A stretch of 64,000 bases of DNA from Escherichia phage SelmaRatti. The translations under genes were made by a program, and so were the position numbers. Position 1 is the stretch's first letter; every line of letters begins with the position of its first letter. Under the pieces are notes generated by a model. The model had not been told where the DNA came from and did no database searches. It saw nothing but the letters and a program-made list of their open reading frames with translations. The stretch is from the sequence record MZ501103. The stretch is one strand, 5' to 3'. Below are positions 4,787 to 64,000 of this stretch, in pieces.

Positions 4787-4848
4787 ATTTAATCTCCTCT
4801 TGGTAAGTAAGTATAACTTCAGTGTTTCTTCTCTAACTTACCAATATA

Positions 4849-7259: not shown

Positions 7260-7290
7260 AGCCCCCTCCCCTTAGGTTTAATTTACCAGA

Positions 7291-8833: not shown

Positions 8834-8860
8834 ATTTCTTCCTTATCAATTTATATAAAT

Positions 8861-8889
8861 ATTATAGCAAGTATTTAAGCATTTAGCAA
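8861..8889 (-). promoter_or_regulatory. sigma70-type early promoter for ligase subunit B operon
   Basis: rc reads TTGCTA-17-TATAAT then ataaattga box. Confidence 0.55.
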
Positions 8890-9032
8890 CTACAATTTTA
8901 ACTAACTTTGCTTACCCTCGCCATAACTTTCTATCCCTCAACTGAATGATAATAGTATATACCTAAGCGGCGAAAATGTCAATAACCACTTTATAATTCC
9001 GATATGGTAGATGGGTAGCAAAGGGTTATGTA

Positions 9033-10004: not shown

Positions 10005-10277
10005 TTATTCTGCCTCATAGTACGTGGGTTGTCTAGTGGATCCGTGCCATGTAAAATTTTTGCAGAGATGCAAATACGTGGTTTTTACTAGCCTACCTGA
10101 CAATGGAGAGTATATTTCAGCTATTAATACTTCTTTTTCGTAATGAAGTGAAATCAGCTTATACCCACTTCTAGTTTTAGTATACTTTTCTCCATTAATC
10201 TTCTCCTCCCACATAAGTATAAGAGGCTGTCCGATATATGGGAAAGGTTTAAGTGTACTTATATTTATCTTTTTCAC
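10005..10277 (-). CDS. hypothetical protein (90 aa)
   Basis: ORF abutting ligase subunit A start; own upstream promoter. Confidence 0.4.
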   Translation of the reverse strand: MKKINISTLKPFPYIGQPLILMWEEKINGEKYTKTRSGYKLISLHYEKEVLIAEIYSPLSGRLVKTTYLHLCKNFTWHGSTRQPTYYEAE

Positions 10278-10307
10278 TTTGCAACCCTCTCATTAATTTA
10301 TATAAAT

Positions 10308-10336
10308 ATTATATAACAAAACTGAGTTGAAAGCAA
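10308..10336 (-). promoter_or_regulatory. sigma70-type early promoter
   Basis: rc reads TTGCTT-17-TATAAT then ataaattaatgag. Confidence 0.55.
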
Positions 10337-10342
10337 ATACAT

Positions 10343-10654
10343 TTATTCTTTTTCCGCCAGGCGTTTAGCTTCTTTTTCTACTTCTAATAAAACCTCACTA
10401 TTAGATAATATTTTAGTAAATGCCTTAAATAAATGAGATGTTGTTTCTAGAGTGTATGGCATACTGAATCCACTTTTTGTTGGAAACCATTCACCTTCTA
10501 TATCTTGGAGCCAGTACCTAATTCCTAAGTATAGATTCCCCCTAAACTCAGATACAGTTAGCCTAACCTGTTGGCCATCTTCTCTCTCCCAGATAACTAT
10601 GGACTGATCATCTACATGTCCAACATAATCCTGATTTACATTATCTCCTGACAT
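10343..10654 (-). CDS. hypothetical protein (103 aa)
   Basis: ORF in operon context. Confidence 0.4.
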   Translation of the reverse strand: MSGDNVNQDYVGHVDDQSIVIWEREDGQQVRLTVSEFRGNLYLGIRYWLQDIEGEWFPTKSGFSMPYTLETTSHLFKAFTKILSNSEVLLEVEKEAKRLAEKE

Positions 10655-11301
10655 TTTATTGCTCCCTGACTTAGGAGATATTCCTCTGCCTCCTCTGGTT
10701 GAATACTGAAAAACTCAGTAGAACCGTCAAATATTGACTCTGTAAATATCTGCATACTAGAAAAGAATTGATGGGCTTTATTTTCTAGGGTATATGCAGA
10801 GCCTTCATAAGAGTATACCCCATGTATACTCAGATCCACCAAATTAGAATCTTTTTTGATCTCTTGAAGTCTTCTATCTGGGTTTTTAGATGTTCCTATT
10901 TTTGTTCCTAGCTGCGGGCTATAAAATAGATACAAATAGCTTGTAGCCGCACAGATAGGGCAAGATCTTCTAGCATTTTTAATCTTATCCACGCTGCTAG
11001 CCCATCTATGCCCTTCTACACACTCGAACTCTGCTTGACTACGGGAATTAATATAGGGAGATACAAGTTTTATACCCCTACTAGCTAGCTGTTGGTTTAT
11101 TTGCTCTACAGTAAGCTTAGCTTTATTACTACAATGTGGGCAACCACTACCCTTTCTTATATTATTTAGGTAAGCTTTCCATTGGTGGCCATTTAAGCAT
11201 TTAAACATGGCTGGTGTTCTTATGTTAACCCATTCACTTACTATACTAAAGCCTCGTGACTCTAACTCTTTATTTATTTGTTTTGCTGTTAACTTTTTCA
11301 C
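10636..11301 (-). CDS. zinc-ribbon repeat + T5orf172/GIY-YIG-like domain protein (homing-endonuclease-like)
   Basis: Two repeats C..GH.W...CP.C (FKCLNGHQW...CPHC; FECVEGHRW...CPIC) and C-terminal YLYLFYSPQLGTKIGTSKNPDRRL. Confidence 0.6.
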   Translation of the reverse strand: MKKLTAKQINKELESRGFSIVSEWVNIRTPAMFKCLNGHQWKAYLNNIRKGSGCPHCSNKAKLTVEQINQQLASRGIKLVSPYINSRSQAEFECVEGHRWASSVDKIKNARRSCPICAATSYLYLFYSPQLGTKIGTSKNPDRRLQEIKKDSNLVDLSIHGVYSYEGSAYTLENKAHQFFSSMQIFTESIFDGSTEFFSIQPEEAEEYLLSQGAIKCQEIM

Positions 11302-13159: not shown

Positions 13160-13167
13160 ATAAATTT

Positions 13168-37455: not shown

Positions 37456-37530
37456 CGGGGTGTAGTCTAAGGGAGAGGCAGGAGTCTTCTAAATTCCTTT
37501 ATGCAGGTTCGAATCCTGTCACCTCGGCCA
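37456..37530 (+). tRNA. tRNA-Arg (anticodon TCT)
   Basis: Hand-folded cloverleaf: acceptor cggggtg/cacctcg, anticodon loop cttctaa, T-arm gcagg-ttcgaat-cctgt, encoded CCA. Confidence 0.7.
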
Positions 37531-37564
37531 ATTTTATTAACTGTAACTAAAACAAAGGAAATAT

Positions 37565-38512
37565 ATGTTTAATACTAAAAATATGAAAGAACTAACTTCT
37601 GAGCAGAAAGTAATTCGTACTATTAAACGTTGGGGGATTGGTGCTGTAGTTGGTTTAGCAGGTTTAATCCTAGCTTTTAATTCATATACTATTGTTTCTG
37701 ATGGTACGGTTAAAACTCAAACATTCCTGGGTAAAGTAGACCCTAATCCAGTATTACCTGGTTTCCATATTGTAAACCCGTTTGCATCTTTCGATACTTT
37801 CAGTACAAAAGATATTGCTGTAAAATTAGATAAACTTCAGGTTCCTAGTCAGGATAAGTTTAAATCCACTGTTGACCTGACTGTTATGTTACAATTTGAT
37901 GGTTCTAAGGCACCGATCAACCGTATTAATGCAGGTACTCAGGATCAGGCTCTAGATAAGTACGTAACTGAAAAATTACTGTCCACTATTCGTGAGTTCG
38001 GTAAGTCTGTACCTAAAGCACAAGATTTATTTGATGCTAAAATTCAGGCTCAATTGCAAACTGCAATTCAACAGGAAGTTGAAGAGTATGCACGCCCATA
38101 TGGTTACACAGTTAAGCAGGTATTCCTTCAGGATATTACTTTGCCACCGGTAATCATGGAACAGGTACAGAATACCAAAGTTCGTGAAGAACAGGTTAAT
38201 GCTGCTAAAGCTGAATTAGCTCGTGTTGAACAGGAAGCACAGCAAAAAGTTAAACAAGCAGAAGCAGATCGTGAAGCTCGCAACAACCAAGCTATCGCTA
38301 ATGAACGTGACGCAGATGCTAAACTGTACGCAGCTAAGAAAGAAGCTGAAGCTAACGCCGCACTGCAACGTACCATTACTCCTGAGATGATTCGTTGGAA
38401 ACAACTGGAAGTTGAGATGATTCGTGCTCAGAAATATCAAGGTGGTGTGCCGCAGACTGTGGTTGGCACTGGTTACGATGGCCAGATGATTATGGATATG
38501 CGTAATAAGTAA
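37565..38512 (+). CDS. SPFH/band-7 membrane protein
   Basis: N-terminal TM helix, band-7-like core, C-terminal coiled coil. Confidence 0.55.
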   Translation: MFNTKNMKELTSEQKVIRTIKRWGIGAVVGLAGLILAFNSYTIVSDGTVKTQTFLGKVDPNPVLPGFHIVNPFASFDTFSTKDIAVKLDKLQVPSQDKFKSTVDLTVMLQFDGSKAPINRINAGTQDQALDKYVTEKLLSTIREFGKSVPKAQDLFDAKIQAQLQTAIQQEVEEYARPYGYTVKQVFLQDITLPPVIMEQVQNTKVREEQVNAAKAELARVEQEAQQKVKQAEADREARNNQAIANERDADAKLYAAKKEAEANAALQRTITPEMIRWKQLEVEMIRAQKYQGGVPQTVVGTGYDGQMIMDMRNK

Positions 38513-38588
38513 TATCCACGCGTAATATTCGAAGTAAGCCCTGTGTTTCCTGGAGAGCGCAGGCAATTAAATGAATTTATATAAAATT

Positions 38589-38621
38589 TTGCTTGTTTTT
38601 GCGCGTAAAATTTTATATAAT
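38589..38621 (+). promoter_or_regulatory. sigma70-type early promoter
   Basis: TTGCTT then TATATAAT; exact -10 register ambiguous. Confidence 0.45.
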
Positions 38622-38651
38622 ATTTACTCAAATTTGGAAGAATACGTTAAC

Positions 38652-39023
38652 ATGAATACTAATAAGAAAGGAAATATAGGGCTAGGAAGTGCGATTGCTC
38701 ACTTTACTAGTAAAGGTTTGATTGTTTCACTACCTTTAAATGACAGTCAAGATTACGATCTAATCGTAGATATGGGGGGTACTCTAAATAAAGTTCAGGT
38801 GAAATATACCTCCCAAAAGGCACCCTCTGGTAGTTATATTCTAGCTATGAGAAGTACAAGTGGCACTTCTAGAGTAGCGTATAAGACTCTTAATGAAACT
38901 AATATTGATTTAGTGTTTGTGTATACTGATCAGTATCAGTTGTTAATTCCAATTAAGAAATTAACTAATAAAAATCAAACTACCCTTACTAAAGAATTAG
39001 TACAAGAATTCCGAGTTATATAA
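38652..39023 (+). CDS. hypothetical protein, possible PD-(D/E)xK nuclease fold
   Basis: ATG 38652 chosen because the longer ORF starts inside the promoter; DYDLIVD...KVQVK motif. Confidence 0.4.
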   Translation: MNTNKKGNIGLGSAIAHFTSKGLIVSLPLNDSQDYDLIVDMGGTLNKVQVKYTSQKAPSGSYILAMRSTSGTSRVAYKTLNETNIDLVFVYTDQYQLLIPIKKLTNKNQTTLTKELVQEFRVI

Positions 39024-39025
39024 AA

Positions 39026-39115
39026 GGAAGAATACGTTAAAAGGTAAACGAGCTGATTGCTAATCAGTAGCTCTGAAATATAGCCTTGTGGGTTCGATTC
39101 CCACTTCTTCCGCCA
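39026..39115 (+). tRNA. tRNA-Ser (anticodon GCT), type II
   Basis: Acceptor ggaagaa/ttcttcc, anticodon loop ttgctaa, long variable arm, T-arm gtggg-ttcgatt-cccac, encoded CCA. Confidence 0.7.
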
Positions 39116-39121
39116 AACATA

Positions 39122-39196
39122 GGGTCGGTAGCTTAAAGTTAAAGCGGTGGCCTCATAAGCTAACGAGTAGGAGTTAGATTCTCCTCCGACCCACCA
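39122..39196 (+). tRNA. tRNA with anticodon CAT (Met or Ile2)
   Basis: Acceptor gggtcgg/ccgaccc perfect, anticodon loop ctcataa, T-arm aggag-ttagatt-ctcct, encoded CCA. Confidence 0.6.
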
Positions 39197-39211
39197 AATT
39201 AAGGAAATAAG

Positions 39212-39379
39212 ATGTATAGACATCCACCTCCGCCAACACGTCGTTCTAGAGAAGTTATCCTCATGGAATTGACTAAAAACTTCAAGGCAACTCTTGAAGA
39301 TAGAGATTTAGGCACAGATGAAGATGTTGATTTCATCTGTAAACTATTAAAAATGAAACTGGAGAAACAACATGGCTAA
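39212..39379 (+). CDS. small hypothetical protein (55 aa)
   Basis: RBS aagga; stop overlaps next ORF start. Confidence 0.3.
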   Translation: MYRHPPPPTRRSREVILMELTKNFKATLEDRDLGTDEDVDFICKLLKMKLEKQHG

Positions 39380-39578
39380 TCCTGAAATTACCGCACAACG
39401 TTTCATGCTTAAAGGCATGATTGCTGAGGCAGGTATGACTCAAGAAGTTGTAGATTTTCAAAAGCAATTCCTCAATATTCTCACTCAAGCCAAAGAGCTA
39501 GGAGAGAAAGAACATGGAGCAGCAATTATGGCTATATCTCTTATTAGTCTAGACTTGGCTGAAGAATCAGGAGTTTAA
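39372..39578 (+). CDS. hypothetical protein (68 aa)
   Basis: ORF. Confidence 0.4.
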   Translation: MANPEITAQRFMLKGMIAEAGMTQEVVDFQKQFLNILTQAKELGEKEHGAAIMAISLISLDLAEESGV

Positions 39579-39608
39579 CTCCTCCAAGCAGAAATTTTAA
39601 AAATGTAC

Positions 39609-39638
39609 TTGCCTTTTGCTTTAAATTTCTGATATAAT
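39609..39638 (+). promoter_or_regulatory. sigma70-type early promoter
   Basis: TTGCCT-18-TATAAT. Confidence 0.5.
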
Positions 39639-39649
39639 AGTTATATAAA

Positions 39650-39943
39650 TTGATGAGAGGAATCAGAATGTCAAAACGTGTTACAGCAACTGGTATTGAA
39701 AGTGTAATCTGCAAATCCTGGGAAGACAGGGAAGGTGAGATTGAATGGCTTTATTTCTATGATGTAGAACTTCTACCGGAAGTTAAAGCTAAATGTATTG
39801 AAGCTGGTATGGCTCCTGATGCTACTGCTGATGTTGAGATTATCATGAATAAGCTAGAGGGTCTGGTAATCACTGTTAGTGATGAGGGCGAAGAAGTCTT
39901 CGAACTTCCGTTCTCCTTAACTGTCACTCCTAAGTTCGACTAA
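39650..39943 (+). CDS. hypothetical protein (97 aa)
   Basis: Promoter 39609-39638, RBS gagagg. Confidence 0.45.
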   Translation: MMRGIRMSKRVTATGIESVICKSWEDREGEIEWLYFYDVELLPEVKAKCIEAGMAPDATADVEIIMNKLEGLVITVSDEGEEVFELPFSLTVTPKFD

Positions 39944-39979
39944 CTAATACAGCACTGAGCAAGTTCTTCAAAATTTTAC

Positions 39980-40008
39980 TTGCTCAGTGCCATAAAACTT
40001 GATATAAT
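39980..40008 (+). promoter_or_regulatory. sigma70-type early promoter upstream of tRNA-Tyr
   Basis: TTGCTC-17-TATAAT; -35 lies inside an 11-bp inverted repeat. Confidence 0.5.
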
Positions 40009-40071
40009 AGTTATCTAATTTGGAAACATATTTAAAAGTGTTTAAACTAGTATTTGAATACTTTTAAATGT

Positions 40072-40155
40072 GCATCGTTGGCAGAATGGCTATTGCAGCG
40101 GTCTGTAAATCCGTGCCCTTCGGGGTTGGTGGTTCAAATCCATCACGATGCACCA
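40072..40155 (+). tRNA. tRNA-Tyr (anticodon GTA), long variable arm
   Basis: Acceptor gcatcgt/acgatgc perfect, anticodon loop ctgtaaa, variable hairpin gccc-ttcg-gggt, encoded CCA. Confidence 0.7.
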
Positions 40156-40172
40156 AATTAAAGGAGCTGCTG

Positions 40173-40445
40173 ATGCATCCTGAAAACTTCTTTATTTACT
40201 GCGAGGATAAGTAGCTGAAACGTAGAATTAACAAAGTCTATCATTATCGTGCTAGTCAACAGCCTTATATATACGCTTTTGACGGTGATCACATTCCACT
40301 AGAACAATTATCCTGTGATTACATGATATTGAAGAACTTTGACGAGACAAAGATCTCAAGCGTTCATAATCGACAGAATCCATTAACGTGGAAATATAAG
40401 AAGAAAAAGAAAGGCATCAAATTCTTAAAAAATGTAGTTGCTTAG
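40173..40445 (+). pseudogene. ORF with strong RBS interrupted by in-frame TAG at codon 14 (40212-40214); pseudogene or amber read-through
   Basis: aaggag then ATG 40173; 13 codons, TAG, then 76 further sense codons in frame. Confidence 0.3.
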
Positions 40446-40466
40446 TTTCCAAAAGTTCTGTATAAT
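40438..40466 (+). promoter_or_regulatory. sigma70-type early promoter upstream of tRNA-Cys
   Basis: TTGCTT-17-TATAAT then cataaattgaa. Confidence 0.55.
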
Positions 40467-40514
40467 AATTACATAAATTGAACTGGAGAAGCAACATGAC
40501 AGAACAAGGTAAAT

Positions 40515-40587
40515 CGACCGTTGGCTGAATTGCTTAGGTGAAGGATTGCAAATCCTTTTTATGTGAGTTCAAATCTCATGCGGTCGT
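40515..40587 (+). tRNA. tRNA-Cys (anticodon GCA)
   Basis: Acceptor cgaccgt/gcggtcg (one G-U), anticodon arm aagga-ttgcaaa-tcctt perfect, T-arm gtgag-ttcaaat-ctcat. Confidence 0.65.
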
Positions 40588-40596
40588 CTAAATTTT

Positions 40597-40680
40597 AGGG
40601 TCGTTAGCCAAGTGGTTTGGCGGCGGATTGTTAATCCGTGTCGAAAGACAACGTAGGTTCGATTCCTGCACCCGCTGCCA
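40597..40680 (+). tRNA. tRNA-like gene, candidate Asn (GTT); acceptor stem imperfect
   Basis: D-arm, anticodon arm gcgga-ttgttaa-tccgt, T-arm and CCA fold well, but acceptor pairs only 4/7 and an extra gtc-gaaa-gac hairpin sits in the variable region. Confidence 0.35.
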
Positions 40681-40700
40681 TCTTAATAGAGGATTTCGAA

Positions 40701-40865
40701 ATGAAAGTATTTCGATTAGTAGTAAGTGATCGACGTTCTAGCAAAGATCGTTCGAAGTATACCTTAGCCCACTATGGTAAAGATGAAAAAGAAGTAATGG
40801 TGGAGTTTGGGATTAATCATCGCTACTTAGAAGTTTACTCTATTAAGGAAGTTTATCCGTATTAA
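40701..40865 (+). CDS. small hypothetical protein (54 aa)
   Basis: RBS agagga then ATG 40701; the longer ORF would start inside the preceding tRNA. Confidence 0.35.
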   Translation: MKVFRLVVSDRRSSKDRSKYTLAHYGKDEKEVMVEFGINHRYLEVYSIKEVYPY

Positions 40866-40943
40866 GGGTCGTTAGCTCAATTGGTTAGTAGCACTTGCCT
40901 TTTAAGCAATAGGTTGAAGGTTCGAGTCCTTCACTACCCACCA
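40866..40943 (+). tRNA. tRNA-Lys (anticodon TTT)
   Basis: Acceptor gggtcgt/actaccc (one mismatch), anticodon loop cttttaa, T-arm gaagg-ttcgagt-ccttc, encoded CCA. Confidence 0.6.
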
Positions 40944-40950
40944 AATTTTT

Positions 40951-41024
40951 GCTCGGTTAGTTTAATGGGAGAACCCCGTCTTTACACGGCGGTTGCGATA
41001 GTTCGATTCTATCACCGAGTACCA
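40951..41024 (+). tRNA. tRNA-Val (anticodon TAC)
   Basis: Acceptor gctcggt/accgagt, D-arm gttt/gaac, anticodon arm ccgtc-tttacac-ggcgg, T-arm gatag-ttcgatt-ctatc, encoded CCA. Confidence 0.75.
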
Positions 41025-41043
41025 ATTAACTCAAAATAAGGAA

Positions 41044-41409
41044 TTGCAAATGCAATTATCAAGCAAGATTCAAGGTTATTTCGGTCATGTGACAATGGAG
41101 TTCGCTATCTCTAAAGGTTGGGATTTCGAGCAAGATCTAGCTGAGTTCTACAAAGATATTGATCTGAACGTACCGTATATGGGACTTTCTACTGGTCAGG
41201 AGATCACAGAAGCCGATGTATTCAAGGCAAGTCAAGGTGAGATAACACCTAGTTTTGCCACTTTTTGGAGTGGCTTCACAATTAAAGAAGAAGCTCCAGA
41301 TGATGATGTATTTATGCAAAGCATGCACTCTGGGAGTTCTGATATGTTATTTGTTAAAGATGTACGACATATCCAAGAAGTGGTAAAAACGTATTTGCAA
41401 AATGCTTAA
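41044..41409 (+). CDS. hypothetical protein (121 aa)
   Basis: ORF with RBS aaggaa. Confidence 0.45.
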   Translation: MQMQLSSKIQGYFGHVTMEFAISKGWDFEQDLAEFYKDIDLNVPYMGLSTGQEITEADVFKASQGEITPSFATFWSGFTIKEEAPDDDVFMQSMHSGSSDMLFVKDVRHIQEVVKTYLQNA

Positions 41410-41423
41410 TTTCTTGTTATAAT
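41395..41423 (+). promoter_or_regulatory. sigma70-type early promoter driving unannotated RNA region
   Basis: TTGCAA-17-TATAAT then tataaattgatg. Confidence 0.5.
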
Positions 41424-41756
41424 ATTTATATAAATTGATGCGAAAATAGCTGCCTAGATACCAGGTGTATGACGTCTACACTAGCAGAGCTACCGAAAAA
41501 GAGATCCTCAGGATAAACGTCGTAGCAAAATTAGTCTGGTATCCATCAATTTAGTTCACTAAGGTATTAGCTCGACCTAGGACTGGCTGCCAAAAAGCAC
41601 GACCCCTACGACTCGGGAGAAGTTCTAGATTAGTCCACTAGATTCAGCGGCAACTGAATAGTGTATCGGGTTTGTGAAGAGCGGCTATCCTCTACTGGCT
41701 AATGTATGAGGTTAGTACGCACACCGAGCTAATAGCCTTAGTAAACTAAAGAATTT

Positions 41757-41831
41757 GGGCGAATAGTGTCAGCGGGAGCACACCAGACTTGCAATCTGGG
41801 AGGGAGGGTTCGAGCCACTCTTTGTCCACCA
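41757..41831 (+). tRNA. tRNA-Ala (anticodon TGC)
   Basis: Acceptor gggcgaa/tttgtcc (G-U pairs incl. G3-U70), anticodon arm ccaga-cttgcaa-tctgg perfect, T-loop ttcgagc, encoded CCA. Confidence 0.6.
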
Positions 41832-41955
41832 AATTAAAAAGAATGCGCGCGATTGACGGAATAGGTATACGTGTAAGCCTTAGAAGTTGAATTTTGAGGG
41901 TTCGAATCCCATCGAGGCGTAACTGCCTGGTGTGATAGAGGCATCATCTTATTAT

Positions 41956-42046
41956 TGGAAGAGCAAATCGAATTGGCGACGAAAACCGCTGGGAAAGTGG
42001 CTGACTGGTAAAACGGCTTGAGAGTTCAAATCTCTCCTCTTCCGCC
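41956..42046 (+). tRNA. type II tRNA-like gene (Leu/Ser class?), anticodon arm not resolved
   Basis: Perfect acceptor ggaagag/ctcttcc, T-arm gagag-ttcaaat-ctctc, CCA, D-loop gaattggcgac; no canonical anticodon stem found by hand. Confidence 0.35.
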
Positions 42047-42059
42047 AAACAATTTATAA

Positions 42060-42154
42060 GGTAGGTCAATCCAACGGCTGGCGATGGACTCCGACTTGAA
42101 ATCGGTTGATCGTAGTGATACGGTGTAAGGGTTCGATCCCCTTACCTACCTCCA
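42060..42154 (+). tRNA. tRNA-Ser (anticodon TGA), type II
   Basis: Acceptor ggtaggt/acctacc perfect, anticodon loop cttgaaa, variable hairpin cgta-gtga-tacg, T-arm aaggg-ttcgatc-ccctt, CCA. Confidence 0.65.
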
Positions 42155-42628
42155 AATCTTGAAGTATGCCGGAATCGGTAGACGGGGCTTCCTAAAGGGC
42201 GTAAGGGGAACATCCACTCCTCATAAGATACCCGAAAACGAGGCTGAGATAAATGGTCTATCTCGTGAAGGTTCAAGTCCTTCTGCTTCTTGATACCTCT
42301 ATGGCTCAAAGTGTAACGGTGCTATTTGATGCTCTTAGTAAGACTTTCCCGACATGCGTTCGGGGGTAAGCTGCTAAGACTAGAGTAGAAGAGTTTCGGA
42401 GAGCCGCCACAATTGAAAATTCGTACTCGTCTTGAGCTGCGTGCAATAGGAGATAACTTGATTAGTATTCTAGAACATGCTAATTGAGGAAGGTTTCTCT
42501 AACCCTGCGAGTTTTCAATTGTGGCTATATCATAATTGGTTAATGATCCTGATTGTGAATCAGGCCTTCCAAGCCTCGCTGAGTAGGGTTCGATTCCCTC
42601 TAGCAGCTCCAACTTTAAGGAAACATTT

Positions 42629-57890: not shown

Positions 57891-58091
57891 ATGATAAAAC
57901 GTATTGTTTATCAGACACCAAAGATTGTAACTGAGTATTTTGTATTACTGCCTCAGATTGTATTTCTAACAGCATTATTTAATATACTTTTTCGACATCT
58001 AGGAATAACGGAAAATATATTCTATACTTCTGGGTTACTTCCTTTTATGTACGAAGGCATCATTATGGCAATTAACGGGGTTCGTAAATGA
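57891..58091 (+). CDS. small membrane protein
   Basis: ORF with hydrophobic core. Confidence 0.35.
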   Translation: MIKRIVYQTPKIVTEYFVLLPQIVFLTALFNILFRHLGITENIFYTSGLLPFMYEGIIMAINGVRK

Positions 58092-58549
58092 CAGCACTAC
58101 AACAACTACAGAATTACTGGTTTGATAACCAATTTAACGATCTCTTCATCCAGTTGTTTGTCGAAACGAACGGACGCTTCAACTACCGATTCTTTAATAA
58201 GTTTCACGAAACAAAATTCTCACATACAGAAATTAATGCAGCAATCCAAGACCTAACTGGTTCTAAAGTAATTCAGTATCGTGAAGTAGACTTCACACCA
58301 GATTGTTTTGGGTTTGAATTGTTTAAGAAAGCGTATAAATTTGGTAAGTTTGAGGATGCTCGTCAATGGGTTCATGATTTCTGGTACAACACCGATATTG
58401 TCCCTAGTCGCGTGCTGATTCTTAACTGGATTGCTAAGCAACATCCACCTAAAACGCAATCATCCTTCTTACCGACTGACACAGGAAACCTCTACCATGA
58501 CAGAAAAGAAAAATCCATTATTGGAGCAGATGAAGGAGTGGGAGAGTAA
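58088..58549 (+). CDS. hypothetical protein (153 aa)
   Basis: ORF, overlapping start. Confidence 0.45.
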   Translation: MTALQQLQNYWFDNQFNDLFIQLFVETNGRFNYRFFNKFHETKFSHTEINAAIQDLTGSKVIQYREVDFTPDCFGFELFKKAYKFGKFEDARQWVHDFWYNTDIVPSRVLILNWIAKQHPPKTQSSFLPTDTGNLYHDRKEKSIIGADEGVGE

Positions 58550-58868
58550 TATTGAAACTGGTCTAATAGACGGTGAAGATATTGTCAACTCCATGCTAGA
58601 AGTAACAGTAGATAATATTAATCCTATTTTGGCTGGAGAAACCTCAGATCTTATAGGACTCTCTAGCACATTTGATTCTTTGGCTAAATTAGCTTTAGAC
58701 GATGAAGAGATAACTAAAGAAGATCTCGCTACAGCTATGAATATGGCTATTAATGCTTACATCGGTAAACGTACTGATGAACTTGGTAAACAGATCAATA
58801 AGCGTGATGCTACGCTAGGTCTTATGGAAACGGCCACTATGTTAAGAAGTGGTAAACAACTTCATTAA
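58497..58868 (+). CDS. hypothetical protein
   Basis: Internal ATG 58497 preferred over the longer overlapping start. Confidence 0.4.
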   Translation: MTEKKNPLLEQMKEWESNIETGLIDGEDIVNSMLEVTVDNINPILAGETSDLIGLSSTFDSLAKLALDDEEITKEDLATAMNMAINAYIGKRTDELGKQINKRDATLGLMETATMLRSGKQLH

Positions 58869-58924
58869 TTTTAGGAGGCCAGAACAACTAAGTCCTGGCC
58901 TTTTATGTTTTCAAGGAACTTCAA

Positions 58925-59128
58925 ATGCAAGTATATGTCCTTACTAGAGATATAAATGAGTATAATCAGGATGGTGAGTATTTTGTAAAAGTATTCGCTG
59001 AAAAGCCAAGTAAACAACAATTATTAGATGCGGGGGTACCCGAAGACCAGGCTAAGTGTATACTACAAGATAAAGAGTTTACCGGGGATGCTTACGAATG
59101 TTTCTACCTTAACTGTGAGACTATTTAA
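58925..59128 (+). CDS. hypothetical protein (67 aa)
   Basis: ORF after a hairpin. Confidence 0.4.
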   Translation: MQVYVLTRDINEYNQDGEYFVKVFAEKPSKQQLLDAGVPEDQAKCILQDKEFTGDAYECFYLNCETI

Positions 59129-59129
59129 T

Positions 59130-59570
59130 ATGAGAGAGAAAGTAAATGAATTATTAATCGAGGAAGCTAACAACTTTCCAATAAATAGATTCATTAAATC
59201 GGATGGATCTATTAATAGAACTAAGATTAAGCAGCTACATCCCGACTTTCAACAAGAAGCACTAAACCTTATATTTATCAAGAAAGCTGTTGCAGTTCAT
59301 GGAGCTTTCTTTGGGTATGAACGTGTAAATTATAAGACAATGCAACAGCAAGTCGAGATCTACTGCCCGGACCATGATGGTTATTACTGGCAAACTGCTA
59401 GATCTCATTTAGAAGGGCACGGTTGTCGACTGTGTGCACACAAGGTTGTGCAGCGTGTCACGGATTATGGAACTTATACCGTGCCATCATGTTACCATAA
59501 ATTTGTAATTGACGATAATCATATAGTTTGGTATAATAAGTTTTCAAAGTTAAGAATGGAGATAAAATAA
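59130..59570 (+). CDS. hypothetical protein with Cys/His cluster
   Basis: ATG directly after previous stop; CPDHDGYYWQ...GHGCRLCAHK. Confidence 0.4.
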   Translation: MREKVNELLIEEANNFPINRFIKSDGSINRTKIKQLHPDFQQEALNLIFIKKAVAVHGAFFGYERVNYKTMQQQVEIYCPDHDGYYWQTARSHLEGHGCRLCAHKVVQRVTDYGTYTVPSCYHKFVIDDNHIVWYNKFSKLRMEIK

Positions 59571-59586
59571 TGGAAACACTTTTTTA

Positions 59587-59751
59587 ATGCTCGTAGGTTC
59601 GTTAGTAGTTATATTAGCACTTCTACTAATCTGCAATATTCTTAATAATAAGAATTTAGAGTTAAAGTGTGAGAACCAAATCCTTAATCGTGAACTTACA
59701 CAATATAATGTAGCAGCTCGCAAGCTGTTAGACAAACTGGAGAATAAATAA
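59587..59751 (+). CDS. small membrane-anchored protein (54 aa)
   Basis: Below the ORF-track cutoff; TAATG overlaps at both ends. Confidence 0.3.
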   Translation: MLVGSLVVILALLLICNILNNKNLELKCENQILNRELTQYNVAARKLLDKLENK

Positions 59752-60362
59752 TGTTTACACAACAAACCATTAAAGTAGTAGCAGATCATGAACTCGACAC
59801 ATGGGATTACAGCTTTAAAGATCTGACTGCTACAGTACAGTTTAAATCTATGCAACTGTCGTTTTTGCACACTGATCTTCAAGGTTGTAAAGAGTTTCAG
59901 GCTAAGCTCATCGATGCTCGTAAGATTTTTGGTACGGCTCGCATCCCGGCTGATAACCTGATTAATGCACTAATCGATGCAGGGTACAAACTCGTGAAGA
60001 CCGAGGTGAACCGCCCTAGTACTCCAGTGACTATTAGAGATCCGTGGCAGTCAGGGACAATCTCAATGCTGAATAACTCCGATAAAAGATTAATGTCGGA
60101 TATGCACAATGTTCATTGTGGTGGTGTGGTAAGCAATACGCAATCATATAAGTTTGGTGAAGATTGCGGCCCTTCTGTACAGCTGCAACATACCCAAGAG
60201 GCTTTTGAATCTGATATGCGAAGCGTAGCACCTGAGGATGCTGGAGTTTCTAGGAGTTCTGTTTGTACTATTCATTTTAATAATCTTAGGCCTGGGAATA
60301 TAAATGATACTATCCTTGAAGCGTTGGGGGCTGCTCTTAATGAAGATAAGAGAGGTAGTTAA
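59751..60362 (+). CDS. hypothetical protein (203 aa)
   Basis: ORF, coupled start. Confidence 0.45.
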   Translation: MFTQQTIKVVADHELDTWDYSFKDLTATVQFKSMQLSFLHTDLQGCKEFQAKLIDARKIFGTARIPADNLINALIDAGYKLVKTEVNRPSTPVTIRDPWQSGTISMLNNSDKRLMSDMHNVHCGGVVSNTQSYKFGEDCGPSVQLQHTQEAFESDMRSVAPEDAGVSRSSVCTIHFNNLRPGNINDTILEALGAALNEDKRGS

Positions 60363-60709
60363 TGATATTTGGTAAAACAAAAATAACTTCTGCTGGTGAC
60401 GATTTAATTACTCTTAGTCTCTACTATAAAGATGAAAATGTAGAATTAGAAACATTAGAGTATATTCTAATAACTACTAATAAGCCAAAAATAGGAGAGT
60501 TATTTGATATAATATCTATAGTCTCTGCTAGGGAAGATATTCCAAGTATAACACCAAAGAATATAGCTCACTTAGCACAACAATTAGGAATCCTATGGTA
60601 TAAAGTAGATCTTCCAGCTAAAGAAAGAACCAAAGGAACCTTTGCAGAAGTTGCAAGAAAACCTAAGCCAGAAAAGAAAGAAACAGGGGAGCAAGCGTCT
60701 GATATATGA
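60362..60709 (+). CDS. hypothetical protein with C-terminal tail ...TGEQASDI
   Basis: Last 8 residues identical to the helicase (5736-7259) C-terminus, encoded with different codons. Confidence 0.45.
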   Translation: MIFGKTKITSAGDDLITLSLYYKDENVELETLEYILITTNKPKIGELFDIISIVSAREDIPSITPKNIAHLAQQLGILWYKVDLPAKERTKGTFAEVARKPKPEKKETGEQASDI

Positions 60710-61419
60710 TTAAAGAAGCTGAAAAATTAAAACGTCTCATCCAGTTAGCGCGTGGTGCTACACAAAAGAGTCTTTCACAGCTAACTGATGAAGAAAAATA
60801 TGCAGTAATGTTTTTAGGAGATCATTATCCTGCTAAGTGGGATAAGGGTAAGATCAAATATGATCGTGATGCAAAACAAGTAGTTTGGTCAGGCTCATAT
60901 GTAGAGGTGAATAAAGCATTAAAGGCTTTAGATCCTGCAGCAAAAGGTTTCTCTTCTAATGCTATTCATATTCTAATTGATGAAGATCTCCCAAGATTTA
61001 AGGAAGCATCATTTAAAGAAGCATTAGCTAGCGAAGATCTTATTCCTTTCAAACATGGCAAATATGCACATCTTCCTCCACTAGAAAAAGAGAAACCAAC
61101 TCTAGTTAAAGATGAAGTTTATCGTGGGATTGGCACAATGCTAGCGAGTTTGACTGTAGCTCTCCATAAAGATCTAGAGTTAACGCCCTTAGAAAATGCT
61201 GTGCATTTCATGTGCCATAAATATGAGGATACATTTAAAGAACTATGTAAGTCGCTAGGAATGCCAAGTTACACGATATTAAACTACGCTCCTGAGTATA
61301 CTAGAGCAGCTCGCGGAACTATGGATTACGATGATACAGGATCAACTGCTTCCTATTTAGCAACTTATATCTACTTCGCATCCTTAGGTATCAAACTCAA
61401 ATCCAAGAAGGAGGAATAA
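60706..61419 (+). CDS. hypothetical protein (237 aa)
   Basis: Last plus-strand gene before the non-coding repeat locus. Confidence 0.45.
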   Translation: MIKEAEKLKRLIQLARGATQKSLSQLTDEEKYAVMFLGDHYPAKWDKGKIKYDRDAKQVVWSGSYVEVNKALKALDPAAKGFSSNAIHILIDEDLPRFKEASFKEALASEDLIPFKHGKYAHLPPLEKEKPTLVKDEVYRGIGTMLASLTVALHKDLELTPLENAVHFMCHKYEDTFKELCKSLGMPSYTILNYAPEYTRAARGTMDYDDTGSTASYLATYIYFASLGIKLKSKKEE

Positions 61420-61437
61420 AAGTTAACAAAATTTTCT

Positions 61438-61466
61438 TGACAACTCATTGCGGCACATGTTATAAT
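61438..61466 (+). promoter_or_regulatory. near-consensus sigma70 promoter with no ORF downstream
   Basis: TTGACA-17/18-TATAAT; terminator about 165 nt downstream. Confidence 0.5.
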
Positions 61467-61603
61467 AATCTCATAGATTAACAACTACTCTAGTTGATTA
61501 ACTCTAGGGGCGATGATTATTACACGAATGTCTCGTATAGCTTGCGGCTGAGCAACAGCGGTATGACGGCATGAGTACTCACGTAATTAATCACGCGCCC
61601 CCA

Positions 61604-61640
61604 GGAGAGACTCTCATGAAATTGGGGGTCTCTTTTTCTT
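61604..61640 (+). terminator. rho-independent terminator closing the ORF-less transcription unit
   Basis: agagac...gtctct stem then tttttcttt. Confidence 0.5.
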
Positions 61641-61893
61641 TATATTATTTAAATATTTAAATATTTTTAATGGCAATATCTGTGTTCAAGATGATACACC
61701 GGTTGCCGCTCATCTGCTAGGATGGCACAACACTTTCTAGTAGACTCCTAAGTTTCTAGGAAAACTCTCACTTTCTAGGGCAGTTTCTCTCCAACGTTAC
61801 ATATCCTAGGCCGGTTTTCCTATACAGGGCGGTTATGGGGAGGGCGGTTATTTCTAGAAGACATTTTTTGAAAACATTTTTCCAGAAATTACT

Positions 61894-62495
61894 GTCGGAT
61901 TTGCACCTTGTGTTTCTAGAAATTTATGGTCGGATTTGCACAATCGCCTAAGTTTTTAGGAACATATAATCTCCTGAAAATGGCAGCATTATTTCGGGCC
62001 GAAGGCCCATGATTGCCTGAGTTTTTAGGGCCACAGAAATTTTCACTTGTCAAGCTATTTTGCCCCATTTTGCTAATAAAATTTTACTTTTTCTGCACCT
62101 ATCTCAAATTAACCCAAATTATCTCAACTCTTCCCCAAAATCCCCGCAAATCGGGTGCCCCGCACCAAACATGCGCCCCTCTCACAGTTCCCTCAAATTT
62201 CTCTCGCTATCTCACCTTCACTACAAACCTATACAATCACACACCATCTCATCGAAGTCACAAAAATTTCATCGGATTCGCACAGCTCAACACATGTCGG
62301 ATTTGCACATACTCTAGCTAATTCCACAGGATTCGAACGCAGTTCGTGATTGCTGGAGTTTTTAGGGAGACAGATTCGTCACTCTCACGAATTTATAAAT
62401 TTTTTTCGGGTCGGATTTGCACACTACCAAAAATTGTCGGATTTGCACATACATGCCCGCACGTAACACCCGTGGAGCATTGTCGGATTTGCACA
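61894..62495. repeat. seven direct copies of a 13-bp iteron-like repeat GTCGGATTTGCACA
   Basis: Copies at 61894, 61929, 62272 (variant), 62296, 62410, 62436, 62483, all same orientation; interspersed with repeated TTTCTAG(G/A) and GTTTTTAGGG motifs. Confidence 0.7.
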
Positions 62496-62520
62496 AAAGC
62501 GCAGGGCAATTGCCCTGCTC

Positions 62521-62700
62521 GCCTGAATGCGAATGATAATGAGAATCAATCTCGTTTAAAAAGCTGAATGCGAATGATAATGATTCGCATTTAAGAAAGG
62601 GAATGAGAACTATTCAAGAAGTGAAATGATTCTCATTTAAAAAGTGGAGTGATTATCGGTTAGCTAGTGAAATGCGAATGATAATGATTCGCATTTAAAA
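62521..62700. repeat. three copies of GAATGCGAATGATAATGA, two extended to perfect palindromes
   Basis: Copies at 62525, 62566, 62671; AATGCGAATGATAATGATTCGCATT is an inverted repeat; related palindrome aatgagaa...ttctcatt at 62611-62637. Confidence 0.7.
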
Positions 62701-62728
62701 ATGGAAGTGAGAAACACTATTATTTAAG

Positions 62729-62810
62729 TTATCCACAGACTTATCAACAGCACGATTTGACTTGACAGAATCCTAGCCATTTTGAGGCGTTATTAACAGA
62801 CTTATCCACA
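62729..62810 (+). promoter_or_regulatory. two consensus DnaA boxes (TTATCCACA) plus degenerate copies
   Basis: TTATCCACA at 62729-62737 and 62802-62810; variants ttatcaaca and ttatcctac adjacent. Confidence 0.5.
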
Positions 62811-63078
62811 GCTTATCCTACTGTATAAATATACAGTATTCCTATGTAGTGAATAATTCTAATATAGGCCTAAAACGTCCTGAATCGCATTCTAACGCGT
62901 TTAATTTTGGTGGAGGTATTTTAATATGGGGAAATTTGAGGAAGGCCATAAAAGGTGGGGCCAGTAGTTGCGCCCCGTGATTATTAGTGGTAGATATATT
63001 TTTGCCAATAGCGGCGGATACTGTCGCCACCAGCGGAATCATTCACAGCCTCAACATTACCCGCGAAAATATATAATC

Positions 63079-63423
63079 TCATTGTGCCACCTTTCGAAAC
63101 GCTATTTCAATACTATCCGCAGTGGATTGAATATATGCGCCTTTCATTATCAGGCGCTCGGTGCATATCTTGCGAAAAATGTTGATAAAATCATCTTCAT
63201 TTTCTGCAATTAATGCCTCACCCATAACCTGAACGTCACAAGACCCAAAAGTTAAAAATTGAAACGCTAGTTCACGGGCGACAACGGCAGAAATTTTATA
63301 ATGCGCCTTACCCTCATAAATATTAACCACGCCTTTATAAACTGGTGAAAGCTGATTTAAATAGTTTGCTAATAATGCCGGACGGCAATTAGCAACAAAA
63401 CGATTGCCCTCATAAATAACCAT
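63079..63423 (-). CDS. hypothetical protein (114 aa), higher-GC block
   Basis: ORF with GC content and codon choice distinct from the rest of the window. Confidence 0.35.
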   Translation of the reverse strand: MVIYEGNRFVANCRPALLANYLNQLSPVYKGVVNIYEGKAHYKISAVVARELAFQFLTFGSCDVQVMGEALIAENEDDFINIFRKICTERLIMKGAYIQSTADSIEIAFRKVAQ

Positions 63424-63546
63424 TTTATAACCTCCCGATCAGATAGCCTGATAAAAGCATAAAGATACCCAACGAAAGAGGGTCATTCTTAAATAAGGTG
63501 GCGATAAAACCGCCAGCCATTGCAAGGAGAACAACAATAACGCTTT

Positions 63547-63759
63547 TCATAGTACCCCACGAAACGCAGCGTAAAAGGTGGCAAAATGTTTAACCGTTTC
63601 AGCGATCACGTTGCCGCGCTTATCAAATTTTTTCTCGGTAACACGAAAGGCATTTTTGTTACGTGCTACATATTCGATTTTACAATCTGGACGCTCGAAC
63701 GTGTTAACATCCACCAGCTTAAAGCCTTTCGAACGTGCAAGAGAAACGTTGCGTATCAT
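63547..63759 (-). CDS. hypothetical protein (70 aa)
   Basis: ORF, same higher-GC block. Confidence 0.3.
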   Translation of the reverse strand: MIRNVSLARSKGFKLVDVNTFERPDCKIEYVARNKNAFRVTEKKFDKRGNVIAETVKHFATFYAAFRGVL

Positions 63760-63761
63760 TT

Positions 63762-63944
63762 TTATTCTCCTTTACTAATCATGCAGCCCAGCAGATAAGA
63801 AAATACAGCAATGCCAGCGCCAATAGTAACCATTGGTTTTGTATTTACTAAACCGCAATAAGAATCTTGAATACCATAAGCGGTGGCGAAAAGAGTCAGA
63901 ATAGCGCCCAAGATACCCGCCAGAATAGCTCGAAAAATAACCAT
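63762..63944 (-). CDS. small hydrophobic protein (60 aa)
   Basis: Two predicted TM helices. Confidence 0.3.
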   Translation of the reverse strand: MVIFRAILAGILGAILTLFATAYGIQDSYCGLVNTKPMVTIGAGIAVFSYLLGCMISKGE

Positions 63945-64000
63945 TTTTATTTCCCCTAGTTAGTGGGTGATACTGTATATCCCCCGTTATTACTTACATT

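What the first reader, a model, noticed from the sequence alone, without database searches (positions are those of the whole stretch)
61438..61640. Promoter-to-terminator unit of about 165 nt without an ORF: candidate small RNA
A near-consensus sigma70 promoter is followed by an ORF-free segment with internal inverted repeats (around 61480-61505) and a strong intrinsic terminator. It lies at the edge of the iteron/DnaA-box locus, so it could be an sRNA or a regulatory transcript controlling replication or DNA injection.
Basis: seen in the sequence. Interest (0 to 1): 0.55.

Follow-up and report, generated by a model that had tools for sequence, protein, structure and literature searches.

The report
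Conserved small RNA of T5-like phages
Just outside the terminal repeat of this T5/BF23-like phage sits an unannotated gene for a ~170-nt, three-hairpin non-coding RNA with a perfect host-type promoter; T5-like phages of E. coli, Salmonella and Klebsiella all keep its fold, but its function is unknown.

Summary
A 12/12 sigma-70 promoter with an extended -10 (61437-61466) is followed by about 168 nt without a conserved ORF and by a 14-bp intrinsic terminator (61603-61636).

The window is a BF23-like Tequintavirus. The unit lies between the last gene of an early operon and the injection-stop/DnaA-box region, about 390 bp outside the terminal repeat.

All 25 T5-like contigs retrieved by a downstream anchor carry the unit at this position. 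So do T5, BF23 and a Klebsiella phage whose flanking protein is only 33% identical.

The central hairpin occurs in at least 10 poorly alignable sequence versions, and every version folded is far more stable than shuffles (z -3.4 to -6.3).

Substitutions respect the + strand RNA fold. T5 and Gostya9 differ at 12 positions: three compensatory pairs and one broken pair (P = 0.0002). In five within-type comparisons, 2 of 34 substitutions break a pair, against about 19 expected.

There is no Rfam match, no tRNA, no coding signal, no annotation in T5 or BF23 records, and nothing in the searched literature.

I conclude it is a genuine, previously undescribed structured sRNA family. Its mechanism is unresolved. 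I favour a trans-acting, protein-binding RNA. A role in replication or injection is unsupported.

The parts
61437..61442 (+). -35 hexamer TTGACA
   Evidence: Relatives have TTGACA, TTGACG, TTGCAT or TTGCAA at this place, while the spacer sequence varies freely.
61458..61466 (+). Extended -10, TGtTATAAT
   Evidence: It is invariant in all non-T5 versions, including Klebsiella phage Roth37. T5 itself has TGtTATCAT.
61473..61479 (+). Inferred transcription start (A61473) and the T5-type '+1 box' ATAGATT
   Evidence: Nine other promoters in the window have (T/C)ATAAATT 6 nt after the -10. The start site is inferred, not measured.
61474..61506 (+). HP1, the 5'-terminal A/U-rich hairpin
   Evidence: Folding. 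Three pairs show changes on both sides.
61507..61601 (+). HP2, a long imperfect hairpin. Its lower stem and GAUUAU/AAUC helix are conserved. Its apex is exchangeable and exists in at least 10 sequence versions.
61603..61645 (+). HP3, an intrinsic terminator (14-bp stem 61603-61636 with several G-U pairs, then a U-rich tail) containing the family-wide GGGGG. It is also the only terminator for the upstream early operon.
   Evidence: No terminator-like site was found between the stop codon at 61419 and 61603.

Best explanation
This is an independent gene for a structured non-coding RNA, about 168 nt long (61473 to about 61640, + strand).

How it is made:
- Host sigma-70 RNA polymerase starts at a consensus T5-type promoter.
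- Judging by its position about 390-590 bp beyond the terminal-repeat boundary, this is probably among the first promoters to enter the cell when second-step DNA transfer resumes. It points back toward the terminal repeat.
- Transcription stops at an intrinsic terminator that also ends the upstream early operon. The same sequence is therefore also that operon's 3' end.

What it folds into: a 5'-terminal hairpin (HP1), a long imperfect hairpin (HP2) and the terminator hairpin (HP3).

How I think it works: the product acts as RNA and in trans. The sequence-conserved lower part of HP2 is the recognition site for a phage or host protein. That part comprises CUAGG...GAUUAU on the 5' strand and AAUC, a C/A-rich bulge and CCUAG on the 3' strand. 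The apex would be a structural spacer that is freely exchanged between phages.

Shown: the promoter, the fold, purifying selection on + strand base pairs, the absence of a coding signal, and the distribution among phages.

Inferred: the transcription start, the order of entry, expression itself, action in trans, and protein binding.

My sub-confidences are about 0.85 that it is a functional structured RNA gene and about 0.35 that it works by binding a protein in trans.
For: Promoter:
- Perfect promoter plus terminator.
- Its functional elements are conserved while the spacer varies.
- The promoter and the first 14 nt are identical in Klebsiella phage Roth37, although the flanking protein is only 33% identical.

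Distribution:
- The unit is present in 25 of 25 T5-like IMG/VR contigs retrieved by the anchor.
- The downstream anchor region matches 437 phage records.

Fold:
- z = -6.7 in the window.
- The ten representatives folded have z between -3.4 and -6.3. The + strand has the lower free energy in 10 of 10, by 2 to 12 kcal/mol.

Covariation:
- HP1 plus the HP2 base: score 0.140 against 0.048 in shuffles (0 of 500 reach it), slid controls at most 0.045.
- HP2 helices in types D to H: score 0.203 against 0.110 (0 of 500), slid controls at most 0.088.

Within-type substitutions:
- T5 against Gostya9 has 12 substitutions: 3 compensatory pairs, 2 wobble-preserving, 1 breaking and 3 unpaired (P = 0.0002).
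- In five comparisons, 2 of 34 substitutions break a + strand pair against about 19 expected. On the reverse strand 10 break a pair.

No coding signal:
- No ORF is conserved. The ATG in the terminator loop is ATA in UTK0009 and absent in type D, and the frames differ.
- Substitutions by position mod 3 are 12, 14 and 15.

Protein site rather than seed: apart from the first 7-8 nt, which coincide with the T5 '+1 box' shared by other promoters in the window, the conserved sequence lies inside a helix-bulge-helix.
Against: - No expression data were examined. The start site and the 3' end are predictions.
- In T5 itself (type C) and in Roth37 (type G) the simple scan finds no canonical terminator after the RNA. 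The 3' end, and therefore the length, may differ there.
- Type C shares only the architecture and the 3' module with the other types. It lacks the CUAGG/GAUUAU motifs, so it may be an analogue rather than a homologue.
- The CUAGG/CCUAG elements resemble a cluster of (T/C)TCTAG(G) DNA motifs just downstream. Part of the conservation could therefore act at the DNA level.
- No protein partner is identified. The adjacent early protein has no recognisable family or fold.
- A global MAFFT/RNAalifold consensus failed. The covariation counts rest on small, partly trimmed alignments.
Confidence: 0.6

Rival explanations
1. The act of transcription and termination is the function. The unit would be a boundary element that (a) terminates and 3'-stabilises the upstream early operon and (b) together with the converging pre-early terminators keeps the injection-stop/DnaA-box/terminal-repeat junction free of read-through. 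The RNA itself would have no trans activity.
For: - The terminator is the only one downstream of the early operon.
- Terminator-like sites on the opposite strand at 62518-62501 and 62591-62567 face it across the repeat region.
- In Roth37 the operon has its own terminator immediately before the promoter. This shows that termination is wanted at this spot.
Against: - A terminator alone would do this job. It does not explain a perfect, conserved promoter placed after the last gene.
- It also does not explain selection for pairing throughout a 95-130-nt hairpin that lies upstream of the terminator.
- In Roth37 the RNA gene persists although the operon is already terminated.
Confidence: 0.17
2. 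It is a base-pairing (Hfq- or ProQ-type) regulatory sRNA. It would target a host or phage mRNA through a short seed such as the invariant 5' end AUAGAUUA or the GGGGG tract.
For: - It has its own promoter and, in the window, a Rho-independent terminator with a U-tail.
- The 5' end is invariant in all non-T5 versions.
- Several phage-encoded sRNAs of this kind are known (review PMC12197685; lambda PreS preprint 10.1101/2024.10.31.621285, listed).
Against: - The invariant 5' stretch coincides with the '+1 box' shared by other T5-type promoters, which drive mRNAs. It is mostly paired in HP1.
- No complementarity longer than 10-15 nt, and only low-complexity matches, was found in the 64-kb window or in the terminal repeats of BF23 and T5.
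- Near-matches to the 13-nt leader are no more frequent than in shuffles: 8 against 4.5.
- Host targets could not be screened.
Confidence: 0.13
3. It is a DNA-level element: protein-binding sites or hairpin-forming inverted repeats used for DNA injection arrest or restart, for terminase cutting at the repeat boundary, or for replication initiation. That could include an RNA primer or R-loop running into the DnaA boxes. The promoter would be incidental or would serve to activate the site.
For: - Position next to the DnaA-box repeats and about 390 bp from the terminal-repeat boundary.
- CTAG motifs like those of the downstream cluster occur inside the gene in every version.
- A 13-bp palindrome spans the start site.
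- Termination looks weak in T5 and Roth37, so transcripts may enter the repeat region there.
Against: - Substitutions preserve G-U wobble pairs only on the + strand, and the - strand fold is always weaker. This is the signature of RNA, not of duplex or cruciform DNA.
- The central part is replaced by unrelated sequence in different phages, whereas the true repeat region downstream is at least 90% conserved in most of the matching records.
- In the window a strong terminator precedes the DnaA boxes.
Confidence: 0.07
4. It encodes a small protein. Several GenBank records annotate 37-46-aa CDSs here.
For: - CDSs are called over the region in VSe12, S113, 1-23, BB1, JLBYU40 and K15.
- In the window, AGGAG lies 8 nt before the ATG at 61617.
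Against: - That ATG sits in the terminator loop. It is ATA in UTK0009, is absent in type D, and its frame shifts between types A and B.
- No ORF of 10 or more codons is shared across types. Only one of the listed ORFs, in type F, has a Shine-Dalgarno-like motif upstream.
- Substitutions show no 3-nt periodicity.
Confidence: 0.02

Closest known systems
Phage lambda OOP RNA (77 nt, promoter pO to an intrinsic terminator, next to the iterons of ori-lambda); comparison from my own knowledge
   Same: It is a short promoter-to-terminator unit without an ORF, made by host RNA polymerase, lying beside an iteron-rich region of a phage genome. It was likewise first suspected of a replication role.
   Different: OOP is antisense to the 3' end of cII and works through that overlap. 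Here no gene lies on the opposite strand for more than 1.4 kb. This RNA is also twice as long and is dominated by a long hairpin.
T5 strong promoters of the N25 / H207 type (sequences recalled from knowledge; the family is re-derived from the window)
   Same: Same organisation: a TTGxxx -35, a TATAAT -10 and a conserved ATAAATT-like box at +1.
   Different: The other promoters are followed by a ribosome-binding site (GAGAGGAG) and a gene. This one is followed by hairpins and a terminator.
Stable small RNAs of virulent coliphages with unknown function (T4 species 1/2 or 'band C/D' RNAs; T5 low-molecular-weight RNAs in the tRNA region); from my own knowledge
   Same: They are phage-encoded, structured, abundant small RNAs whose role is still unknown.
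   Different: Those lie inside tRNA clusters and are processed from tRNA precursors. This one has its own promoter and terminator, and it lies about 19 kb from the tRNA genes in the window.
6S RNA
   Same: Similar size class (about 170-200 nt), mostly double-stranded, and conserved in structure rather than sequence.
   Different: There is no Rfam 6S match. The 5' and 3' ends do not form a closing stem, and no large central bubble is predicted.
Hfq-dependent phage or prophage sRNAs (DicF, StxS, AgvB, lambda PreS)
   Same: Own promoter, intrinsic terminator, and encoded by a phage.
   Different: There is no identifiable free conserved seed and no predicted target. The structure is much more extensive, and the phage is strictly virulent.

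Membership tests
Any Rfam 15 family | Match to a covariance model | tested here: not met
   Window 58000-64000 searched at E up to 10: the only overlap is a spurious RUF6-5 hit, 22.8 bits against a gathering score of 70. Eight loci carrying types B, B2, C, D, E, F, G and H searched at E up to 1: nothing in the unit.
tRNA / tmRNA | Cloverleaf detected by ARAGORN | tested here: not met
   Ten tRNAs are found at 37456-42611 and none near 61.5 kb.
Independent bacterial-type sRNA gene | Own sigma-70 promoter | tested here: met
   12/12 match plus extended -10. The hexamers are conserved while the spacer varies.
Independent bacterial-type sRNA gene | Rho-independent terminator | tested here: inconclusive
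   Strong in the window. No canonical site is found in T5 or Roth37.
Independent bacterial-type sRNA gene | A discrete transcript is detected | not testable with these tools
   Public RNA-seq of Bas33/HildyBeyeler exists (PRJEB101990, PMC13250531), but reads cannot be mapped here.
Structured functional RNA | Base pairs are maintained by compensatory change | tested here: met
Seed-pairing (Hfq-type) sRNA | Conserved single-stranded seed with a complementary target | tested here: inconclusive
   The invariant 5' end coincides with the promoter '+1 box'. No phage target was found. Host transcripts were not screened.
cis-antisense RNA (OOP-like) | Overlaps a gene on the opposite strand | tested here: not met
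   The mechanical minus-strand ORFs of 20-37 aa that overlap the unit are not conserved. No gene is annotated on that strand in T5 or BF23.
6S RNA | Closing stem formed by the 5' and 3' ends, plus a central open-promoter-like bubble | tested here: not met
   Predicted folds of all types consist of three consecutive hairpins.
Leader / riboswitch / put-type antiterminator | A regulated gene downstream on the same strand | tested here: not met
   Downstream lies the non-coding repeat region. Davison describes T5 9194-10856 as non-coding with 97 stop codons.
Small-protein gene | An ORF conserved in frame among relatives | tested here: not met
Host-derived mimic (CRISPR repeat, retron or other defence RNA, host sRNA) | Sequence similarity to E. 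coli genomes | tested here: not met
   No match at E up to 1 in 5,426 complete E. coli genomes, for type A or for a concatenate of types B to H. Structural mimicry was not tested.

The most novel reading that the evidence does not exclude
The RNA is an RNA-only effector of host takeover or counter-defence, made within seconds of second-step DNA entry and without needing translation. The conserved lower stem of HP2 would dock a host or phage protein. The cassette-like apex of HP2 would set specificity and would be swapped between phages under an arms race, helped by the homing endonuclease genes that sit next to it. This would be a new class of phage anti-host RNA in one of the oldest model phages.
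Probability: 0.15. Interest if true: 0.8.

Novelty: new member of a known kind. Interest (0 to 1): 0.55.

Why it matters
T5 has been a model phage for seventy years. Its two-step DNA injection and its early gene control are still not understood.

The 450 bp between the repeat region and the first early gene are treated as empty in all three T5 records, in BF23, and in the detailed comparative study of this region. Many other records place spurious small CDSs there.

This work shows that the space holds a conserved, probably very highly transcribed structured RNA gene. That gives a concrete, easily testable new player at the boundary between first-step and second-step DNA. It also corrects the annotation of the many genomes that carry it. 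Its modular, exchangeable hairpin could make a useful scaffold or marker.

If the RNA proves dispensable, the finding is still a clean new RNA family for Rfam.

Tried and rejected
1. Known RNA families. Rfam on the window and on eight relatives and ARAGORN gave nothing.

2. Global MAFFT plus RNAalifold on 16 full-length sequences. This recovered only HP1, because the HP2 versions are not alignable. I replaced it with apex-trimmed and subgroup alignments and within-type substitution tests.

3. A 5'-terminal hairpin AAUCU-CAU-AGAUU. Rejected, because its 5' arm lies between the -10 and the inferred start site.

4. The invariant 5' end as an sRNA seed. Weakened, because the same box occurs at other T5-type promoters.

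5. Paralogues or antisense targets. None found in the window or in the BF23 and T5 terminal repeats. The RNAduplex scan ignores intramolecular structure and was not informative.

6. Host mimicry. No E. coli match.

7. A CsrA-type GGA sponge. GGA motifs are frequent in types C, D and E but absent from type B, so the idea was dropped (by eye).

8. A functional partner in the upstream gene.
   - Pfam gave nothing above threshold and PHROGs gave only unknown-function families.
   - Only four homologous clusters were found.
   - AlphaFold gave pLDDT 39 for the single sequence and 62 with five sequences.
   - Foldseek against the PDB gave no match at E up to 0.001.

9. Small peptide. Rejected.

10. 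Literature. Six successful searches found no description of this RNA. One of them looked for the exact promoter and leader sequences. A 2025 review of phage sRNAs does not mention T5.

I did not build a covariance model, because MAFFT alignments could not be made register-consistent across the types.

Full report
WHAT THE WINDOW IS

- The region matches T5-like phages (Demerecviridae, Markadamsvirinae). The best matches are Salmonella phages S114 and VSe12 at 93-94% identity. At this locus BF23 is nearly identical to the window.
- The window's + strand is the reverse of the standard T5 orientation.
- BF23's terminal repeat is annotated as 1-9743. The window's 61664-61768 aligns to BF23 10002-10106. 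The inner end of the repeat therefore corresponds to about window 62027.
- The unit lies in unique DNA about 390 bp outside the repeat. It sits between the stop codon of an early gene (60706-61419) and the non-coding repeat region.
- In T5 that repeat region carries the injection stop signal and nine TGTGCAAATCCGACA 'direct repeat D' copies.

THE OBSERVATION

- The scan finds TTGACA, 18 nt, then TATAAT preceded by TG at 61437-61466. This is the best promoter-like site in the region and one of only two 12/12 sites in the whole window.
- It also finds a 14-pair stem at 61603-61636 followed by a U-rich tail.
- RNA 61473-61640 folds into three consecutive hairpins: HP1 at 61474-61506, HP2 at 61507-61601 and HP3 at 61603-61636. 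The energy is -63.2 kcal/mol, z = -6.7.
- The fold is unchanged when 120 nt of downstream sequence are added.

WHERE TRANSCRIPTION STARTS

- Nine other promoter-like sites in the window have (T/C)ATAAATT(G) exactly six bases after TATAAT, usually followed by GAGAGGAG and a gene.
- One of them (13160, - strand) reads AGATTCATAAATTTGAGAGAGGAG. From memory, this is the sequence of the classical T5 N25 promoter.
- The promoter studied here has ATAGATT at the same place, so A61473 is the likely start.
- This also explains why the segment from the -10 to +8 is invariant among relatives. It argues against reading that stretch as an sRNA seed, and against a hairpin that would need the untranscribed AAUCUC.

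CONSERVATION

- An exact 16-mer from the conserved downstream flank retrieved 43 viral contigs. The 25 that are T5-like all carry a promoter, hairpins and a terminator-like module at the same place.
- The downstream flank occurs in 437 phage records. A type-A query hits 268 records.
- T5 itself has the unit at NC_005859 about 10,650-10,881 on the minus strand, with a TTGACA-17-TATCAT promoter scoring 11/12 plus TG.
- Klebsiella phage Roth37 has a flanking protein only 33% identical over 65% of its length. It still has a 12/12 promoter, and the segment from the -10 through the first 14 transcribed bases is identical.
- A metagenome scan added one more version.

SEQUENCE VERSIONS

- I distinguish at least ten versions of HP2:
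  - A: window, BF23, VSe12
  - A2: VEc33, JLBYU40
  - B: ev219, S113
  - B2: LVR16A, KPP2018
  - C: T5, Gostya9, NR01
  - D: pork29, Seabear
  - E: SP01, H8, BB1, HildyBeyeler, Ob_P
  - F: UTK0009
  - G: Roth37
  - H: a metagenome contig
- The modules recombine. Kenya-K33 joins type A HP1 and HP2 to the type B 3' module.
- The 3' module has two forms, CUCUCAUGAAAUGGGGGUAUAUU... and GAGA...GGGGGAUCUUAUAUUUAAAAUAAAAG.

EVIDENCE THAT THE RNA FOLD IS SELECTED

1. The ten representatives folded (types A-F and their subtypes) are far more stable than dinucleotide shuffles (z -3.4 to -6.3). In 10 of 10 the + strand has the lower free energy, by 2 to 12 kcal/mol.
2. HP1 shows U-A/A-U, C-G/U-A and A-U/C-G exchanges in otherwise identical surroundings. 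On an apex-trimmed alignment of 13 sequences, four pairs change on both sides. The covariation score is 0.140 against 0.048 in shuffles (0 of 500 reach it), and slid controls are at most 0.045.
3. In types D to H, the closing helix (C/G)CUCUAGGC:GCCUAGAG(G/C), the Roth37 variant GCUAGGCA:UGCCUAGC and the GAUU:AAUC helix give a score of 0.203 against 0.110 (0 of 500). Slid controls are at most 0.088. One row of that alignment is truncated and partly misaligned.
4. The strongest evidence comes from close relatives of one type.
   - T5 and Gostya9 differ at 12 of 206 positions. Six of these form three compensatory pairs (U-A to C-G, A-U to U-A, A-U to G-C). Two keep a wobble pair, three are unpaired and one breaks a pair.
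   - In 5,000 random placements the mean was 0.11 compensatory pairs (P = 0.0002) and 7.05 broken pairs.
   - Over five within-type comparisons, 2 of 34 substitutions break a pair on the + strand, against about 19 expected. On the reverse strand 10 break a pair. A-U to G-U and C-G to U-G changes are neutral only on the + strand.

NOT CODING

- Mechanical ORFs exist, and several GenBank records annotate 37-46-aa CDSs here.
- None is shared between types. Only one (type F) has a Shine-Dalgarno-like motif. The ATG in the terminator loop is ATA in UTK0009 and absent in type D, and its frame differs between types A and B.
- The 41 substitutions between types A and A2 fall 12, 14 and 15 by position mod 3.

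NOT A KNOWN RNA, NOT ANNOTATED

- There is no Rfam match in the window or in eight relatives, and no tRNA.
- There is no similarity to 5,426 E. coli genomes.
- NC_005859, AY692264, AY587007 and the BF23 record carry no feature here.
- Davison's comparative study calls T5 9194-10856 non-coding, ends its repeat analysis at 10409 and never mentions a promoter or transcript.
- A 2025 review of phage sRNAs does not mention T5. No paper in the library prints the promoter or leader sequence.

WHAT IS CONSERVED IN SEQUENCE

- Besides the promoter, three elements are conserved:
  - CUAGG and GAUUAU (GAUUUA in type E) on the 5' strand of HP2;
  - AAUC, a C/A-rich bulge (CAC, CACGC or GCAU) and (G)CCUAG on its 3' strand;
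  - the GGGGG tract in HP3.
- GGGGG is kept even where its CUCUC partner mutates to CACAC (VEc33) or CUCAC, and in types C, D and G it lies largely in the loop. It is therefore not conserved for pairing alone.
- Conserved sequence inside a helix-bulge-helix, together with a freely exchangeable apex, is what a protein-recognition site looks like. This is my reason for preferring a protein-binding RNA over a seed-pairing one. It is an inference, not a result.

MECHANISM AND RIVALS

- I found no complementarity to the iteron region, to the pre-early genes of BF23 or T5, or to the rest of the window beyond 10-15-nt low-complexity matches.
- There is one exception. T5's HP2 carries AUAAAUUACUAGAAACA, which matches 16 of 17 positions of the opposite strand of a TTTCTAGAAAT site in the downstream flank (E = 0.025).
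- All versions contain CTAG elements similar to a striking cluster of (T/C)TCTAG(G) motifs between the RNA gene and the repeat boundary. There are 16 CTAG in kilobase 61, against a window mean of 4.6 per kb.
- I cannot exclude that part of the gene doubles as DNA binding sites.
- In T5 and Roth37 the scan finds no canonical terminator, so transcripts may run further there.
- The adjacent early protein (PHROG 8993; PHROG 8583 in T5) changes together with the RNA version. This may reflect linkage or partnership. Its function could not be inferred.

VERDICT

- The finding is a genuine, conserved and apparently undescribed structured small RNA gene of T5-like phages.
Its suggested role in replication or injection remains speculation.
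- Expression and function need experiments, and public RNA-seq could settle expression at once.

Noticed in passing
window 8889(-), 13160(-), 34113, 36775, 39609, 41394, 45192, 52466, 55581: A family of T5-type promoters with a conserved box (T/C)ATAAATT(G) six bases after TATAAT, usually followed by GAGAGGAG. The site at 13160(-) reads like the classical N25 promoter (from memory).
   Followed up: partly
window 61467-61479: A 13-bp palindrome AATCTcatAGATT spans -6 to +7 of the promoter. T5 has a different palindrome, AACTCtatGAGTT, at the same place. It could be an operator or a coincidence of the +1 box. There is only one exact copy in the window.
   Followed up: partly
window 61490-61916: A cluster of nine (T/C)TCTAG(G)-like motifs. 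There are 16 CTAG in kilobase 61 against a window mean of 4.6 per kb. Two of the motifs lie inside the RNA gene, and the cluster is also present in Roth37. No name or binding protein is known to me.
   Followed up: partly
window 61672-61707 and on to about 61740: A hairpin-forming element, GGCAATATCTGTGTTCAAGATGATACACCGGTTGCC, plus its flank. The surrounding 137-nt flank (61664-61800) matches 437 phage records, mostly at 90% identity or more. Its function is unknown.
   Followed up: partly
L002 2159-2515; L061 1-311; relatives OSYSP, SmurfNell, PRF-SP13; window 59028-59570: Homing-endonuclease genes (HNH, GIY-YIG) are inserted directly upstream of the RNA gene in several relatives. A window ORF 2 kb upstream has HNH-like PHROG hits. 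Homing with co-conversion could explain the mosaic of RNA versions.
   Followed up: no
L001 2738-2857; L003 2713-2826; L050 856-996; L054 611-751; L061 512-682; L063 513-722: GenBank records annotate short hypothetical proteins across the 3' half and the terminator of the RNA gene. These are probably false gene calls.
   Followed up: yes
L057 (Kenya-K36); also VAH1 and KPP2018: These records hold the downstream anchor twice. K36 annotates its direct terminal repeat as starting right after the upstream gene. In some phages the RNA gene may therefore lie inside the terminal repeat and be present in two copies.
   Followed up: no
window 62501-62518(-) and 62567-62591(-): Two terminator-like hairpins on the minus strand end the converging pre-early genes. 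The repeat region is thus bracketed by inward-facing terminators on both sides.
   Followed up: no
L004 3352-3380(-) and about 3150-3345(-) (T5, NC_005859 about 10,650-10,881): T5's own version (type C) shares the architecture and the 3' module but lacks the CUAGG/GAUUAU motifs. It lacks a canonical terminator and follows a different upstream gene (T5.018, PHROG 8583).
   Followed up: partly
window 37456-42611: A cluster of ten tRNA genes on the + strand (Arg, Ser, Met, Tyr, Cys, Lys, Val, Ala, Ser, His), as expected for a T5-like phage.
   Followed up: no
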